A program made the translations under genes and the position numbers. A stretch of 64,000 nucleotides of DNA from Methanotrichaceae archaeon (lineage in GTDB: Archaea; Halobacteriota; Methanosarcinia; Methanotrichales; Methanotrichaceae), in the NCBI GenBank assembly GCA_963803145.1, contig CAWDLW010000042.1, positions 1-64,000 on the forward strand. The letters are read 5' to 3'. The notes beneath the pieces are model-generated. The model had not been told where the DNA came from. It did not search any database and saw only the letters and a program-made list of their open reading frames with translations. How positions within the stretch are numbered: position 1 is the stretch's first letter; each line of letters begins with the position of its first letter. Shown here piece by piece: positions 7,944 to 46,860 of this stretch.

Positions 7944-9488
7944 CTCGTTGGACTGGCCAGCGTATTGCAGGCCAATTCGTTGAAAATCGATTCTTCATTT
8001 CAAGCAATCGTTCCCAAGGATATACAGTTCACATGGCCCCTTTATTTGCCGTACCTCTTGGCAGGGGCAACATATATTCTCCTGGTTTGGAGCTACAATC
8101 ACCCCCTCCCAATCAGTCTCTCAGTTTTATCGTGGGGAGTAGGTGGCATCATCGGCTTGATAATCGTTCGCCAAATCGCGGCTTTGAAAGAGAACGAACG
8201 GTTTTATAAGGCGACTGTTCAGGAGATAGCGGAACGCAAACATGCCGAGAATGAGATCAGAAACCTGAACGAGGGACTCGAAGATCGGGTCGTCGAACGC
8301 ACGAAACAGCTTGAGTCTGCCAACAAGGAGCTGCAGAAGGCCAAGGAAGAAGCGGAGGCTGCAACTAGGGTCAAGTCAGAGTTTCTGGCGAACATGAGCC
8401 ACGAGATCCGAACTCCTATGAACGCAGTCGTGGGATTGACTGGTCTACTCATTGGAACAGATTTAACCAGAGAACAACGCGATTATGTTGAGACCATCAG
8501 AAGCAGCGGAGATGCTTTGTTATCGGTTATCAACGATATTCTGGACTTTTCAAAGATCGATAACGGCAAAATGGCGTTGGAGATCCAGCCCTTCGATATA
8601 AAAAGCTGCATAGAGGATTCCATTGATCTGTTATCTTCAAACGCGTCTCAGAAAGGCTTGAAGATGGCCTATACTATCGACAACAGTACACCAGAAACAA
8701 TCATGGGCGATCCCACCAGGCTACGCCAAATTTTGGCCAATTTGCTCAGCAACGCAGTTAAATTCACGAATTTTGGCGAGGTTGAGATCTCGGTTTCGAG
8801 CAAGAATCTCCAAGGCTGCGATTATGAAATCCACTTTAAAGTTAGGGACACAGGAATTGGAATTCCGGAAGATAAGATTGGCTGCCTGTTTCAATCCTTC
8901 AGCCAGGCCGACATCTCAACTTCACGAAAGTACGGAGGTACCGGCCTCGGCTTGGCCATAAGCAAGAGGCTTGTTGAGCTGATGGGTGGAATTATTTGGG
9001 TCGAATCCGAGTTGGGCAAAGGTTCAACCTTTCATTTTACGATATTGGCAGAAGCGACTTCCATCAATCATGGAGTTAGTAGGGAACAAGCCTTGCGGCC
9101 AGAGATCTACGTCCACAAAACACAGGATCGCCATCTTCGCATACTGCTAGCCGAGGACAATATAGTCAACCAGAAGGTAATCCTGCGGATGCTAAACAAG
9201 CTGGGATACCGCGCGGACGTATCTGCCAATGGGCTGGAGGTTTTGGCAGCCTTAGAACGTCAGCCTTACGATGTAGTTCTCATGGATGTCCAGATGCCGG
9301 AGATGGACGGCATCGAGGCAGCCAAGAAGATTTGCGAGAGATGGTCGGCAAGACCGAGGATTATCGCTATTACTGCCTATGCCCTACAGGGTGATCGGGA
9401 GAAATGCATCGCTGCAGGCATGGATGACTATATTACCAAACCGGTGAAGCTGGAAGAGTTGCGGACAGCATTGGAATCTCACGGCTAG
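7944..9488 (+). CDS. Hybrid sensor histidine kinase with receiver domain, 5'-truncated by the IS
   Basis: [15 protein letters not shown]-box, N/G boxes, receiver AEDN..MDVQMP..KP; frame is open back to the IS end; possible original ATG at 6677. Confidence 0.88.
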
Positions 9489-10075: not shown

Positions 10076-10294
10076 TTAGCGTCTTCCGTATCTTCCAGGC
10101 GCACTAGCGGGCCTATGGTTCTGGTAGCAATCGCCGCAATATACCGGCCTGGATCCGTCAGGCTTGAATGGGACCTGACATTGCTTTCCGCACTCTGCAC
10201 AGGTTGCATCGTGCATTTCTCTAATGGTTCTGCCTTGTGGGGTGGCCACTCTTGGGGGTGGTACAAAATTATCTCTTAGTCCGTAAACTCGCAT
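10076..10294 (-). CDS. CxxC-x17-CxxC zinc-ribbon protein
   Basis: REMHDATCAECGKQCQVPFKPDGSRPVYCGDCY. Confidence 0.85.
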   Translation of the reverse strand: MRVYGLRDNFVPPPRVATPQGRTIREMHDATCAECGKQCQVPFKPDGSRPVYCGDCYQNHRPASAPGRYGRR

Positions 10295-10835
10295 TTTAAT
10301 TCACATTCCTTGTTATCGATCAAGAATCGATTAAGCCACAAAAACATCTCAACCAAAAAATCGAATCAACGCAATGCAGCCTTAATATATTATAAGTGTA
10401 CGTCTTCATTTAAGTACCTTTCGGCCCACTTCCGCATACAGTTCAGCCCTTTTCTTGTTATGTTTCCATTAAAGCACACAAATTTATGGAAAGTGTATAA
10501 CAAGGCAGATCCTATGCTCCTGTGGGCAAGCCTTATAGCCTCAGCCGTAAATCACATGCTGCCAAGAACGCCAGCCAAAGGAGGAGGGCAAATTTGGAGT
10601 GATGAGGCTTGAAGACTGGCCAGGCTTGCAGCTCCCCTTTTCGAAATCAAAGACCATTGACATGCTCCATTTGGGGGTCGTGTATCAGCTCAACTGAAAA
10701 TCGAGGTTTGTAGCTTATAATAATGAATTAGGCGAATTTACGCAGCAAATCCGGTTATTTCTATTGACCTTTCGGGGTCAAATTAATATTGCACAAGCTC
10801 TCTAAGACCTTCATCATTGCGTGTGAGGAATCATC

Positions 10836-11117
10836 ATAGCCGATAAAGAAGAAAAGAAAACAAGAAACTTCGTCCTCAGGGATAAAAAGGGCGAAGAGAG
10901 TGGAGTCTTCACAGGATCATCGCCCAGGCAGGCAGCACTGAAAGCAGCAAACAGAGGCTTTACAGATATCAGGCTCCGAGAGCGAGGCACGCAGAAAGTA
11001 CACATATTCCAGGGAGAGCGCGTGCAGATCGACAAGCCCGCAAACGCCCCTGCCTGGATGCCAGATAAGATCTGGAAGCCGAAGGTCAAGAAGGTAGGTA
11101 CCGAGAAGCTGGAGTAG
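10836..11117 (+). CDS. Non-histone chromosomal protein MC1 (not in the ORF track; apparent ATA start)
   Basis: Manual translation ..TRNFVLRDKKGEESGVFTGSSPRQAALKAANRGFTDIRLRERGTQKVHIF..PAWMPDKIWKPKVKK; 93 aa. Confidence 0.92.
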   Translation: MADKEEKKTRNFVLRDKKGEESGVFTGSSPRQAALKAANRGFTDIRLRERGTQKVHIFQGERVQIDKPANAPAWMPDKIWKPKVKKVGTEKLE

Positions 11118-11175: not shown

Positions 11176-11352
11176 TCAGGCAGAATCTTCTATCACTGCC
11201 AGCACCTTCTTTGCTGCCGATGCCCTCTCAGATCCTGACATATCCTTTGCCATCTCCCCCAGGTCCTCAACTGTAATTAGCCCCATTTTGAACCTGGTAA
11301 CGAGGATGCCTGTCATAACAGCATCGTTCTTCTTCTTTGCTTTCTTAACCAC
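11176..11352 (-). CDS. Small hypothetical protein (58 aa)
   Basis: GTG start after a purine-rich RBS; MVKKAKKKNDAVMTGILVTRFKMGLITVEDL... Confidence 0.6.
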   Translation of the reverse strand: MVKKAKKKNDAVMTGILVTRFKMGLITVEDLGEMAKDMSGSERASAAKKVLAVIEDSA

Positions 11353-11498
11353 TCTTTCCCCCTCTTAATCTTCGCATGCTCAGGATATATCTCTTAGGCC
11401 AAGCCCTCTATCTGTGACTAGTGGTGCAGTAATAGCTTCCGCTCGACTCAGACTTCGACCGCAAACTACAAGTATCTATAATGATTATACAGTTAATT

Positions 11499-12007
11499 TG
11501 CCGCGTCATGCATAGGGTGGCGGGTGTGTCGTGGGCTTAACGTATCCGATAATGCTCTGTTTGGCAGGGATGAACGGTGCTTGTCTCACCAGGGGCAGCA
11601 TACGGTCGATCCTAGGACCTGTCGCTTCCTTGTTCCAGGAGATGCATTCCGTCGTGGCAATGCATTCGGCTACGAGCCTGTGAGACTGAAATCTCGGCGG
11701 GCTGAAAGTTGCATGCTATAACTGGCATAGCAATCTGCCGACAGGCCTTCGCGCTAATACACGACCGGGGCATGACGCGGCACAAGCTGAGGCAGAAGTA
11801 GACTCAGATTCGGCATCTTGAAGGTGTCGAGCTCCCATAAAACGGACGCTGTGTGAAATTCCAGTGCTGTGCTGCCTAAAGCCTTGGCCGAACATCGAGG
11901 CACTGGGCGGGACCTGCCTTCACTACGGTGATAGGCTCCTGTTAAGGACGCTGTGAATCAGTGTTGGTCTGCCCGCGGCTCGATTACCTATTCCACGATT
12001 ATTTTTT
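11499..12007 (+). ncRNA. Large structured ncRNA, OLE-like candidate
   Basis: GC-rich intergenic island with more than ten helices (including a 13-bp perfect helix and a cUACGg tetraloop), an AT-rich upstream promoter and an oligo-T end; lacks RNase P and SRP signatures. Confidence 0.75.
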
Positions 12008-12072
12008 GAATTGTTTGATATATTTGCCTAAACGAAAACTATATATCTCGGCTATTGTCGTATATACTATAT

Positions 12073-12135
12073 GGCAAAGGTCGATAGTCTATTCTTATCT
12101 CTCCTACACCTATAGACTTTTGCCTCCCTCCTTTT
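12073..12135 (+). ncRNA. Small hairpin RNA with anti-SD-like loop, family copy A
   Basis: BRE/TATA CGAAAA-CTATATAT (12033-12046); stem GGCAAAGGTC/GACTTTTGCC; loop contains CTCCTACA. Confidence 0.6.
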
Positions 12136-12324
12136 CATGTGATCTTATGATCCCTCAGGTCCATGTTTTCCCTGGCTCTAAGTCTTATACGGAGTGTGAT
12201 GTTAATCCTAGAATATCTGGCATATAAGACTAAAGGTTCCTTGGGAAAGACCAAATGCTCGATGATTAAAATTACCTGGAATGCTTTTATCTCTTTTAAG
12301 AAAACCGAAATATAATCGGCCTAT

Positions 12325-12971: not shown

Positions 12972-13217
12972 TCAGCCGTGCGCCCACATAGTTTCGTCAC
13001 CATAGGATATCCTGCGAATGCGGTGATATGGAATGAACGTAGAACCCACTTCCGATTGGATCTCCATCCCACCTTGCTCCAGCTTTAGGATTCTATCTCC
13101 TTGGACTGTGGATCTATCATCCGGTGCACCGCGGTTCACATATTCAACGCTCGCCCTGCTGAAATCGTACTGAGGATCGTGGCGCAGTCGCAGGAGAATC
13201 GTGTGGCTTGTTCTCAT
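12972..13217 (-). CDS. DUF504 (MJ1316-like RNA repair domain) protein
   Basis: Y..RGAP...IPYHRIRRI signature. Confidence 0.85.
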   Translation of the reverse strand: MRTSHTILLRLRHDPQYDFSRASVEYVNRGAPDDRSTVQGDRILKLEQGGMEIQSEVGSTFIPYHRIRRISYGDETMWAHG

Positions 13218-30530: not shown

Positions 30531-30632
30531 GCCGGGGTGGCCTAGCTGGTTAGGGCGCGAGACTCATAGGGTAATATAGATATCCGCGCCTGAGACATCT
30601 CGAAGTCGCGGGCTCGAATCCCGTCCCCGGCA
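30531..30632 (+). tRNA. tRNA-Met(CAT), elongator type, with a 28-nt intron (30569-30596)
   Basis: Acceptor GCCGGGG/CCCCGGC, anticodon stem CGAGA/TCTCG, anticodon CAT at 30565-30567. Confidence 0.92.
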
Positions 30633-46705: not shown

Positions 46706-46792
46706 ACTTGCTTTTGAAAGCATCTTTAGTAACTTAAATACTTAGCATCATTATGGAAATCTTTATATTCGTCAAATGACGTATTATTATTG

Positions 46793-46860
46793 GGCAAAGG
46801 TCGGTACAGTCTCCTCCCACACTAAGACTTTTCTAGGACTTTTGCCTCCTTATCCCAATT
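46793..46860 (+). ncRNA. Small hairpin RNA with anti-SD-like loop, family copy C
   Basis: TATA CTTTATAT (46761-46768); GGCAAAGGTC/GACTTTTGCC; inner AGTCT/AGACT with loop CCTCCCACACTA. Confidence 0.6.

What the first reader, a model, noticed from the sequence alone, without database searches (positions are those of the whole stretch)
11499..12007. ~500-nt ornate RNA with OLE-like motifs in an archaeon
Seen: a GC-rich intergenic block with no credible ORF, an AT-rich promoter-like stretch upstream (11475-11492) and a T6 end (12002-12007). Helices found by eye: TGCCGCGTCATGC/GCATGACGCGGCA (11499-511/11770-782, 13 bp perfect); GTCGTG/CACGAC (11528-33/11760-65); ATGCATT/AATGCAT (11642-65); TCGGCGG/CTGCCGA (11694-700/11735-41) enclosing an ~11-bp hairpin; TCGGCATCT/AGGTGTCGA (11810-30); CCAGTGC/GCACTGG (11861-67/11900-06). 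There is also a 4-way junction (11907-76) with a cUACGg tetraloop, and an imperfect 5'-3' closure GTGG-c-GGGTG (11517-26) with TACCT-att-CCAC (11985-96). RNase P (GAGGAAAGUCC) and SRP helix-8 signatures are absent on both strands. Recalled from memory and unverified: the ordered motifs AUAGGG..GGUGU, GGUCGAUCCUAGGA (11604-17), GAGACUGAAAUCUCGG (11682-97), AGCAAU..GCGCUAAUAC (11729-60) and UUACCU resemble conserved segments of the ~600-nt OLE RNA, which I know only from Bacillota. No oapA gene is adjacent; the neighbours are MC1, a 58-aa protein and small RNA candidates. Inference: a shortened archaeal OLE relative or a new large ncRNA class.
Basis: partly seen in the sequence, partly recalled or inferred. 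Interest (0 to 1): 0.92.

Follow-up and report, generated by a model that had tools for sequence, protein, structure and literature searches.

The report
Abundant large structured RNA of Methanothrix
This is a gene for a previously undescribed folded RNA of about 510 bases that occurs in several copies per genome only in the Methanothrix family of acetate-using methane producers and shows up at high depth in environmental RNA samples; it is not a relative of the bacterial OLE RNA, and its job is still unknown.

Summary
The block at 11499-12007 (+) is real. It carries a stand-alone gene for a structured non-coding RNA of about 510 nt. The best conserved stretch is a BRE/TATA-like block at 11460-11498, and the unit ends in a T-rich tail. 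I aligned 86 full-length copies from 53 genomes. A 146-pair consensus fold holds in 94% of cells, against 37-44% when partners are slid, with 286 compensatory cells against 84±10 in shuffles.

The OLE link fails. Rfam 15 gives no match for this copy, for the genome, or for 20 relatives. RNase P and SRP RNAs lie elsewhere in the genome.

The family is multi-copy, with old paralogue lineages. I found it only in Methanotrichaceae: 65 of 101 genomes of the order, 0 of 76 genomes from sister families, and none in plasmid, phage or viral collections. RNA libraries from four studies hold family contigs at more than 1000-fold depth.

A small RNA with CCUCC motifs follows 51 of 63 copies, and an MC1 gene precedes about a quarter. 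The function is not shown. My best guess is an abundant RNP scaffold or decoy tied to control of translation initiation, at about 0.2.

The parts
11460..11498 (+). Conserved promoter block (BRE/TATA-like, AT-rich). The predicted transcription start is near 11499-11500.
   Evidence: Mean column identity is 0.91 over 87 copies, higher than the RNA body (0.82) and the sequence further upstream (0.50) (alignment). The spacing from the TATA-like element to the first helix equals that of the neighbouring small-RNA unit (read). The archaeal promoter consensus is recalled, and the start site is inferred.
11499..12007 (+). The whole RNA, about 510 nt.
   Evidence: It aligns end to end with 86 further copies. 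The consensus fold has 146 pairs in 26 helices with 94.3% of cells paired. Many pairs are G-U, so the RNA strand is +. RNA-library contigs cover 11504-11905.
11499..11782 (+). Domain A: a multi-branched fold closed by the 13-bp helix 1 (11499-11511 with 11770-11782). It holds helices 2-13, among them helix 6, CUCU (11555-58) with GGAG (11638-41).
   Evidence: Genus g4 carries this domain alone, ending right after helix 1.
11786..11984 (+). Domain B: a variable linker (11786-11832), two copies of a 'small hairpin + CGCUGUG hairpin' motif (helices 19-20 and 25-26), and a four-way junction (helices 21-26).
   Evidence: Mean column identity is 0.87 at 11894-11984. The linker hairpin 11810-30 is lineage-specific.
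11985..12007 (+). Pyrimidine-rich 3' tail with a T6 run: the likely archaeal terminator.
   Evidence: T6 lies at 12002-12007. 81 of 87 copies have a T3+ run and 52 of 87 a T4+ run in the (cut) tail. That this is the end of the transcript is inferred.
12030..12140 (+). Companion small-RNA unit: its own BRE/TATA-like element, a hairpin of about 75 nt, and CCUCC-type motifs in the loop and the 3' tail.
   Evidence: A same-strand copy lies within 200 nt downstream of 51 of 63 metagenome copies, and of 22 of 34 genome loci by a strict pattern. G000 has 19 profile hits.
10827..11117 (+). MC1 chromatin-protein paralogue upstream, a recurrent but not constant neighbour.
   Evidence: Pfam PF05854, E 1.1e-37. 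For linkage.

Best explanation
Shown. 11499-12007 (+) is a gene for a highly structured non-coding RNA of about 510 nt. The same strand carries a conserved promoter-like block upstream and a T-rich tail downstream. It belongs to a multi-copy family found only in Methanotrichaceae, with 2-10 detectable copies per genome and several old paralogue lineages. The RNA has two modules. Domain A (11499-11782) is closed by a helix that pairs the 5' end with 11770-11782, and in one genus it exists on its own. Domain B (11786-11984) is a four-way junction with a repeated hairpin motif. Family members are present at very high depth in environmental RNA libraries.

Inferred. The RNA acts in trans as a stable, abundant scaffold or decoy for a protein partner. 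It works together with the small CCUCC-motif RNA that is inherited with it, most plausibly in control of translation initiation. The CCUCC motifs would mimic the 3' end of 16S rRNA. The GGAG-AUG stretch in the core of domain A mimics a ribosome-binding site and is paired with CUCU.

I put about 0.9 on 'real, new structured RNA gene family' and about 0.2 on this particular mechanism. The confidence figure below refers to the identity.
For: Structure: 146 pairs, 94.3% of 12384 cells paired against 37-44% in six slid controls; 61 pairs with changes on both sides (shuffles 36.7±3.7, 0 of 500 reach it); 286 compensatory cells (shuffles 84±10; slid 82-109); covariation score 0.185 against 0.04-0.07 when slid.

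Strand: G-U is the commonest pair at many positions, for example columns 76-181, 232-315 and 270-296.

Gene signals: the promoter block has identity 0.91, and the tail is T-rich.

Not coding.

Family: BLAST finds it in 62 of 101 genomes of the order. Of 97 profile hits in 91 loci, 87 are near full length. A covariance model of the domain A core finds it in 65 of 101 genomes, including 6 of 16 of genus g4. Copies from one genome fall in different clades shared with other genomes.

Expression: four RNA libraries from four studies hold contigs at least 85% alike over 11504-11905. Single contigs reach depths of 1139-1647 in a 529-million-letter library, and the summed depth reaches 4.4e5.

Modules: the g4 homologue covers only profile positions 18-349 and ends after helix 1 with a CCCUCCUC tail.

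Coupling with the small RNA: 51 of 63 copies; in g4 it is also nearby but on the opposite strand.

Precedent for RNAs that mask ribosome-binding sites in a related methanogen: passages on sRNA41 and sRNA154 in PMC5867862.
Against: Nothing shows a function. Predicted pairing between the large RNA and its neighbouring small RNA is no better than with shuffled small RNAs in 22 of 22 pairs, and the sites differ. The GGAG of domain A is itself paired (helix 6), so it need not be a free ribosome-binding mimic. The CUCCUCC stretch of domain B is not kept in this window's own copy.

The contigs give no strand, no ends and no true expression level, and the runs were chosen because they hold this sequence (warnings). 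No start or end has been mapped.

About a fifth of copies lack the small RNA. 14 of the 19 small-RNA copies in G000 do not lie beside or near a large-RNA copy. The covariation controls do not fully remove shared ancestry.
Confidence: 0.85

Rival explanations
1. It is a shortened archaeal relative of OLE RNA.
For: Size, many helices and highly conserved unpaired stretches resemble OLE in a general way.
Against: RF01071 gives no match at E<=10 on the locus, in the genome (40 candidates scored, but no positive control rang), or in 20 diverse relatives. The host is Methanotrichaceae, whereas OLE is described from Gram-positive Bacillota (abstracts listed). The family is multi-copy. No recognisable OLE-associated gene lies nearby (Pfam on eight neighbours, though no OapA model was at hand).
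Confidence: 0.02
2. It is a non-functional dispersed repeat (a MITE-like or decaying mobile element), and the 13-bp inverted repeat is its terminal repeat.
For: It is multi-copy and dispersed, with degenerate and truncated copies in G000. An inverted repeat bounds domain A.
Against: The inverted repeat lies inside the conserved unit and covaries like an RNA helix: 7 of 12 pairs are compensatory. The unit carries a conserved promoter block. Paralogue lineages are old and kept across genomes. RNA depth is high. No transposase is a recurrent neighbour. There is no match in plasmids, phages or viral contigs. I saw no target-site duplication (by eye).
Confidence: 0.04
3. It is the RNA partner of MC1 paralogues: a nucleoid-associated RNA bound by the DNA-bending protein MC1, whose gene often lies just upstream.
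For: An MC1 gene lies within 1.5 kb upstream on the same strand at 4 of 7 MC1 genes in G000, 8 of 34 genome loci, 10 of 43 metagenome copies, 4 of 22 MC1 genes in five near-complete genomes and 7 of 71 MC1-centred loci, where all 7 RNA hits had this arrangement. MC1 copy number is 2-9 in most genomes of the genera where BLAST finds the RNA, and 0-1 (once 2) in g2, g3, g4, g9, g13, g15 and g16. The RNA has multi-way junctions.
Against: Most RNA copies and about 90% of MC1 genes are not linked. The linkage can be explained by duplication of one cassette, and the genera are not independent. The MC1 papers listed show 0 occurrences of 'RNA-binding' (listing only). g4 genomes with one MC1 still carry domain A.
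Confidence: 0.1
4. It is a cis-acting part of a neighbour's transcript: the 3' UTR of MC1, or a leader or precursor of the downstream small RNA.
For: It has a fixed position between MC1 and the small RNA in this window, and a constant spacing of 64-77 nt to the small RNA.
Against: It has its own highly conserved promoter block and a T-rich end. The small RNA has its own BRE/TATA-like element. Upstream genes differ in about three quarters of copies. In g4 the small RNA is on the other strand.
Confidence: 0.05
5. It is a self-processing or circularised RNA (a ribozyme or ligase substrate) in which domain A is released and its ends are joined.
For: RNA contigs from two studies join 11785 back to 11500, exactly at the edges of helix 1 (X7 depth 6; X17 depth 10.8, where local depth is about 75-235). 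No tandem genomic junction exists in G000 or in the loci fetched by then. Domain A exists alone in g4. An MJ1316 domain protein, which recognises RNA 2',3'-cyclic ends, lies 1 kb downstream.
Against: There is one contig per run, and in X7 its share is negligible. Ligation or template switching during library preparation can join ends held together by a helix. I saw no canonical bulge-helix-bulge site at the ends (by eye). No known ribozyme family matches. The MJ1316 gene is not a recurrent neighbour.
Confidence: 0.07

Closest known systems
OLE RNA (Rfam RF01071)
   Same: A large (500-600 nt), many-helix RNA with highly conserved unpaired stretches, its own gene, and an unknown biochemical function. 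It is expected to act as part of an RNP.
   Different: There is no model match. The host is an archaeon, not a Bacillota. It is multi-copy with old paralogues rather than a single gene. No OLE-associated protein genes were seen next to it. It is coupled with a CCUCC small RNA.
GOLLD and ROOL RNAs (large ornate RNAs of phages and bacteria)
   Same: Large size, ornate fold, unknown function.
   Different: There is no Rfam match, no phage or viral context, and no phage genes among recurrent neighbours. Homo-oligomer formation, shown for GOLLD, ROOL and OLE (abstract of PMC12286853), was not testable here.
Abundant decoy RNAs of bacteria (6S RNA, CsrB/RsmZ-type sponges)
   Same: Works-like comparison only: stand-alone gene, very abundant stable RNA, several paralogues (as in the Csr/Rsm sponges), and a repeated hairpin motif in domain B. 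These properties of the bacterial RNAs are recalled.
   Different: There is no sequence or structure relation. The fold is not a rod with a central bubble (6S) and not a string of GGA loops. No partner protein is known.
Archaeal RNase P RNA and SRP RNA
   Same: Stable archaeal RNAs of about 300 nt whose 5' and 3' ends pair.
   Different: Both are found elsewhere in G000 above their Rfam thresholds: RNase P on C9, C38 and C17 and SRP on C34. Neither model matches this locus.
Methanosarcina mazei sRNA41 and sRNA154 loop 2 (RNAs that mask ribosome-binding sites)
   Same: This is the closest known relative in function for the companion small RNA: C/U-rich motifs complementary to GGAGG ribosome-binding sites in a related methanogen (passages of PMC5867862).
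   Different: This concerns the neighbour, not the 510-nt RNA. Homology was not tested and targets are unknown.

Membership tests
OLE RNA (RF01071) | Match to the family covariance model (sequence and secondary structure) | tested here: not met
   No match at E<=10 on 11300-12200, none in G000 at E<=10 (the 14 control genomes also gave none, so there was no positive control), and none in 20 family members at E<=5.
OLE RNA (RF01071) | Occurrence in Gram-positive Bacillota (extremophiles and anaerobes) | tested here: not met
   The closest MC1 loci are all titled Methanothrix, Methanosaeta, Methanotrichaceae or Methanosarcinales MAGs, apart from one labelled uncultured archaeon and one contig binned as Gracilibacteria. 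The RNA was found in 0 of 76 genomes outside family f1 of the class. The host range of OLE comes from abstracts listed.
OLE RNA (RF01071) | Adjacent or co-occurring oapA/oapB/oapC genes | not tested
   Pfam on eight neighbours gave MC1, a treble-clef zinc finger, MJ1316, a histidine kinase/receiver, SOUL and three proteins without a family. I had no Oap model or sequence to search with.
Archaeal RNase P RNA (RF00373) | Match to the model; one essential gene per genome | tested here: not met
   No match at the locus. True matches of 208-215 bits lie on C9, C38 and C17.
Archaeal SRP RNA (RF01857) | Match to the model | tested here: not met
   No match at the locus. The true match of 181 bits lies on C34.
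Any other Rfam 15 family (4227 models, including GOLLD, ROOL, raiA, group I/II introns, tmRNA, 6S) | Match at or near the gathering score | tested here: not met
   At gathering score the whole window gave only a tRNA. On the locus at E<=10 the only hit was PVT1_3, 13 bits. In 20 relatives there were two unrelated chance hits.
Mobile repeat (MITE / IS-derived) | Terminal inverted repeats at the unit's ends, target-site duplication, a related transposase somewhere | tested here: not met
   The inverted repeat is internal and covaries as a helix. No recurrent transposase neighbour was found. Plasmid, phage and viral collections gave no match. Target duplications were checked only by eye at this copy.

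The most novel reading that the evidence does not exclude
The large RNA and the CCUCC small RNAs inherited with it form an archaeal system that mimics both partners of the Shine-Dalgarno interaction. It would throttle or redirect translation initiation in these very slow-growing methanogens. Domain A would be released from the two-domain precursor, and perhaps circularised, as the active and very stable species. A variant of this reading is that it is a new large ribozyme or the RNA core of an unknown RNP.
Probability: 0.12. Interest if true: 0.9.

Novelty: categorically new. Interest (0 to 1): 0.82.

Why it matters
Large, intricately folded RNAs with unknown jobs are rare, and almost all described classes are bacterial or from phages. 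Here is one in archaea with strong comparative support, many natural variants for structure work, and very high depth in soil, freshwater and peat RNA libraries. Its hosts, Methanothrix, are (from general knowledge) among the main producers of methane from acetate in wetlands, rice fields and digesters.

If a substantial part of their non-ribosomal RNA is this molecule, it bears on three things: how their gene expression is read in metatranscriptomes, how these slow growers regulate translation or chromatin, and how much ribozyme and RNP diversity remains unseen in archaea. The family also gives a compact, lineage-specific RNA marker for active Methanothrix.

Tried and rejected
OLE, RNase P, SRP and all other Rfam families were rejected.

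'Domain-A-only copies': BLAST listed many matches to query 1-306 alone, and I first read this as modular copies. The profile search showed that nearly all are full length, 87 of 97 hits, so that reading was withdrawn for genus g6. True domain-A-only genes were seen only in the two g4 loci examined.

The RNAalifold folds of the first 33-34 copies missed helix 1 and were replaced by the fold on 86 copies.

A mutual-information scan for pseudoknots was dominated by subfamily signal and gave no usable long-range pair.

Pairing between the large RNA and its small RNA was no better than with shuffles.

A search for genomic targets complementary to the conserved unpaired G-rich stretch found only the RNA genes' own antisense.

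A conserved 13-codon frame after GGAG-AUG was rejected, because indels of 1-2 nt shift it between copies and its variable positions are the two sides of helix 10.

A canonical bulge-helix-bulge site at the ends of domain A was not seen. This was checked by eye only.

Read laying gave no cover over 11906-12240 or over the flanking genes. The tool says such holes prove nothing, so I draw nothing from them.

Literature: no paper describing this RNA was found with the term sets. 'Methano*' does not occur in the main text of PMC5737381, PMC2864571 or the preprint 10.64898/2026.10.21.760802.

Full report
THE OBSERVATION

The stretch 11499-12007 is a block of 0.54-0.56 G+C set between spacers of 0.37-0.44. 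Its longest ORFs are short and overlap on both strands. A T6 run ends it at 12002-12007. Folded alone it gives -200.7 kcal/mol, z = -2.74, with none of 100 shuffles as stable. That is suggestive but weak. The case rests on comparison with relatives.

NOT A KNOWN FAMILY

At gathering thresholds Rfam 15 finds only a tRNA in the whole window. With permissive filters on 11300-12200 the only hit is a chance match to a mammalian lncRNA model (13 bits, E 0.99). OLE, RNase P, SRP, tmRNA, 6S, introns and the other large RNAs all give nothing. The genome's real RNase P RNA (208-215 bits, three places) and SRP RNA (181 bits) lie on other contigs. The OLE model finds nothing in the genome at E<=10 (none of the 14 control genomes has OLE, so this call had no positive control). 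Twenty diverse relatives of the locus also give no consistent match. The motif likeness was a recollection.

A FAMILY, AND WHERE IT LIVES

- The window's own genome (4.13 Mb, 51 contigs, 99.3% complete, 6.8% contamination) holds two more full copies at 86% and 76% identity, plus diverged or broken ones. BLAST gives 6 matches and a profile search gives 10; some are shown.
- In 101 genomes of the order, which is a single family, BLAST finds the sequence in 62: 36 of the 64 good-quality genomes, 8 of 16 genera, and 50 of 55 genomes of genus g6. Up to 10 matches occur per genome.
- A profile built from 33 copies showed that BLAST's many 'half' matches were fragmentation: 87 of 97 hits in 91 loci are near full length.
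- A covariance model of the domain A core (138 positions, 34 pairs) finds the family in 65 of 101 genomes, now including 6 of 16 of genus g4.
- The same model finds it in 0 of 76 genomes of the four other families of the class.
- BLAST over 301 genomes of the phylum gave only three matches of 23-38 nt at E 2e-4 to 4e-3 outside the window's own genome.
- Plasmid and phage collections give nothing.
- A 24-letter pattern that hits 64 of the 102 loci then held hits no viral contig.
- Record titles of the closest MC1 loci name Methanothrix, Methanosaeta and Methanotrichaceae MAGs.
- In a tree of the 87 copies, copies from one genome fall into different deep clades, each shared with other genomes (for example G038, G089, G095 and G014). 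The paralogue lineages are therefore old and have been kept.

STRUCTURE

I aligned 86 full-length copies (A3, 671 columns), folded the alignment with RNAalifold, and had the pairs counted.

- 146 pairs fall in 26 helices, and 94.3% of 12384 cells form standard pairs, against 37-44% in six slid controls.
- 61 pairs show changes on both sides (shuffles 36.7±3.7; 0 of 500 reach this).
- 286 cells are compensatory (shuffles 84±10; slid 82-109).
- The covariation score is 0.185, against 0.04-0.07 when slid.

Shared ancestry inflates such figures. Even so, the slid controls keep ancestry and stay far lower.

G-U is the commonest pair at many positions. This fixes the RNA strand as +.

In window coordinates:

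- Helix 1 (11499-511/11770-782; 7 of 12 pairs compensatory) closes domain A.
- Inside it lie helix 2 (11525-33/11760-67), a stack of short helices 3-7, the variable hairpins 8-9, hairpin 10 (11642-65), and helices 11-13 (11679-11753).
- Domain B has a variable linker, then hairpins 19-20 (11833-66), then a four-way junction (helices 21-26, 11894-11984) with a UNCG-type loop.
- Hairpins 19-20 and 25-26 repeat the same 'small hairpin + CGCUGUG hairpin' motif with nearly invariant sequence.

Three are peculiar to this copy and pair no better than slid controls across the family.

No frame is open in the family, and gap lengths are overwhelmingly not multiples of three.

GENE SIGNALS

The most conserved stretch of the whole unit is 11460-11498, just upstream of helix 1. 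Its identity is 0.91, against 0.82 for domain A and 0.50 further upstream. It is AT-rich and has the look of an archaeal BRE/TATA promoter (consensus recalled). Its spacing to helix 1 equals the spacing in the neighbouring small-RNA unit. The 3' side is a pyrimidine-rich tail with T runs. The start near 11499-11500 and the end near 12007 are inferred, not mapped.

EXPRESSION

Only assembled contigs of public runs could be laid. Four metatranscriptome runs from four studies (soil, two freshwater, peat) hold many contigs at least 85% alike. X7 has 840 laid records. The contigs cover 11504-11905. Single contigs reach depths of 1139, 1264 and 1647 in a library of 529 million letters, and the summed depth reaches 4.4e5.

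Depths of that size cannot come from contaminating DNA in so small a library, so family members are abundant as RNA. The tool warns that such data give no strand, no ends and no ranking of genes, and that the runs were picked because they hold this sequence. I use them for presence and abundance only.

Two runs from two studies each hold a contig that joins 11785 back to 11500, the exact edges of helix 1. No tandem genomic junction exists in the genome or in the loci fetched by then. This may mark a processed, end-joined domain A. It may equally be an artefact of ends held together by the helix. I leave it as unexplained.

NEIGHBOURS

The strongest association is with a small RNA unit about 65-75 nt downstream (12030-12140 here). 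It has its own BRE/TATA-like element, a hairpin, and CCUCC-type motifs in the loop and the 3' tail. It follows 51 of 63 metagenome copies and 22 of 34 genome loci by a strict pattern. It is itself a family of about 19 copies in this genome.

In genus g4 the homologue is domain A alone. The two loci examined match profile positions 18-349 only, and they end straight after helix 1 in a CCCUCCUC tail. The small RNA lies nearby on the other strand. C/U-rich motifs complementary to GGAGG thus travel with the family in both layouts. RNAs of that kind mask ribosome-binding sites in Methanosarcina (passages of PMC5867862).

An MC1 gene lies upstream on the same strand in a minority of cases:

- 4 of 7 MC1 genes in this genome
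- 8 of 34 loci
- 10 of 43 metagenome copies
- 4 of 22 MC1 genes in five near-complete genomes
- 7 of 71 MC1-centred loci

MC1 copy number is 2-9 in most genomes of the genera where BLAST finds the RNA, and 0-1 (once 2) in g2, g3, g4, g9, g13, g15 and g16. This is far above chance. However, the genera are few and related, and duplication of one cassette would explain it. No other protein is a recurrent neighbour.

HOW IT MOST LIKELY WORKS

Five things are shown: the conserved signals of a stand-alone gene, a conserved two-domain fold, many maintained paralogues, high RNA abundance, and coupling to the CCUCC small RNA.

From this I infer a stable trans-acting RNA that serves as a scaffold or decoy in an RNP. 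The motif content is a paired CUCU/GGAG helix followed by AUG in the core of domain A, and C/U-rich tails and loops around it. I therefore place it, with about 0.2 probability, in control of translation initiation together with the small RNA.

Against this, predicted pairing between the two RNAs is no better than chance, and the conserved unpaired G-rich stretch has no complement in the genome.

The alternatives are an MC1-bound nucleoid RNA (0.1), a self-processing or circular RNA (0.07), a cis element (0.05), a dead repeat (0.04) and OLE (0.02). They are set out with their tests in the rival-explanations section.

NOVELTY

No Rfam family matches, and none of my literature searches found it (supplements closed). 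It belongs to the loose descriptive company of large ornate RNAs of unknown function, but it is related to none of them and comes from archaea.

Noticed in passing
window 12030-12140 (+); also 46754-46850 (+): A small-RNA family: its own BRE/TATA-like element, a hairpin of about 75 nt, and CCUCC-type motifs in the loop and the 3' tail, which resemble anti-ribosome-binding-site RNAs. G000 has 19 profile hits, four directly behind a large-RNA copy and one more near the degenerate C35 copy. No Rfam match.
   Followed up: partly
window about 10560-10660 (+): A conserved element with an extended purine-rich ribosome-binding site followed by a small ORF (MRLEDWPGLQLP...). The site is complementary to the small RNA's 3' tail in 14 of 16 positions (by eye). 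A strict pattern finds the element in 30 of 302 loci, often a few hundred nt behind the small RNA.
   Followed up: partly
window 10827-11117 (+); G000 C15, C17, C18, C27: MC1 is expanded to 7 copies in this genome. The window's copy and the C15 copy have ATA, and the C17 copy GTA, where paralogues C18 and C27 have the ATG start. All are behind a good GGAGG-like site. An in-frame TGA lies just upstream in the window. This may mean non-AUG initiation, or the copies may be pseudogenes.
   Followed up: partly
window 11785 joined to 11500: RNA-library contigs from two studies (X7, X17) join the end of domain A back to its first base. No such junction exists in the genomic DNA examined. It may be a circular or end-ligated domain A, or a library artefact.
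   Followed up: partly
L101:3273-3611 (+) and L102:3129-3467 (-) (genus g4): The g4 homologue is domain A only (about 310 nt). It has the same promoter block and a CCCUCCUC tail right after helix 1. In L102 the small RNA lies about 0.5 kb away on the opposite strand.
   Followed up: partly
window 12972-13217 (-): An 81-aa protein with the MJ1316 domain, which recognises RNA 2',3'-cyclic ends (PF04457, E 1.9e-15), lies 1 kb downstream of the RNA. It is not a recurrent neighbour in the other loci.
   Followed up: no
G000 C9:3971-4272, C38:46773-47074, C17:254301-254602: There are three RNase P RNA genes in one assembly, two with identical scores. Together with 6.8% contamination this suggests redundant contigs or mixed strains, so copy numbers in G000 should be read with care.
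   Followed up: no
window 30531-30632 (+): A tRNA gene with a 30-nt insertion in the anticodon loop region, presumably an intron.
   Followed up: no
G000 C11:81100-81640 (+); L007:483-979 (-): A diverged subfamily. Helix 1 and domain B are kept, but the inside of domain A is largely different.
   Followed up: no
window 10076-10294 (-) and 8046-9488 (+): Upstream genes: a treble-clef zinc-finger protein (PF23477) and a hybrid histidine kinase with a receiver domain.
   Followed up: no
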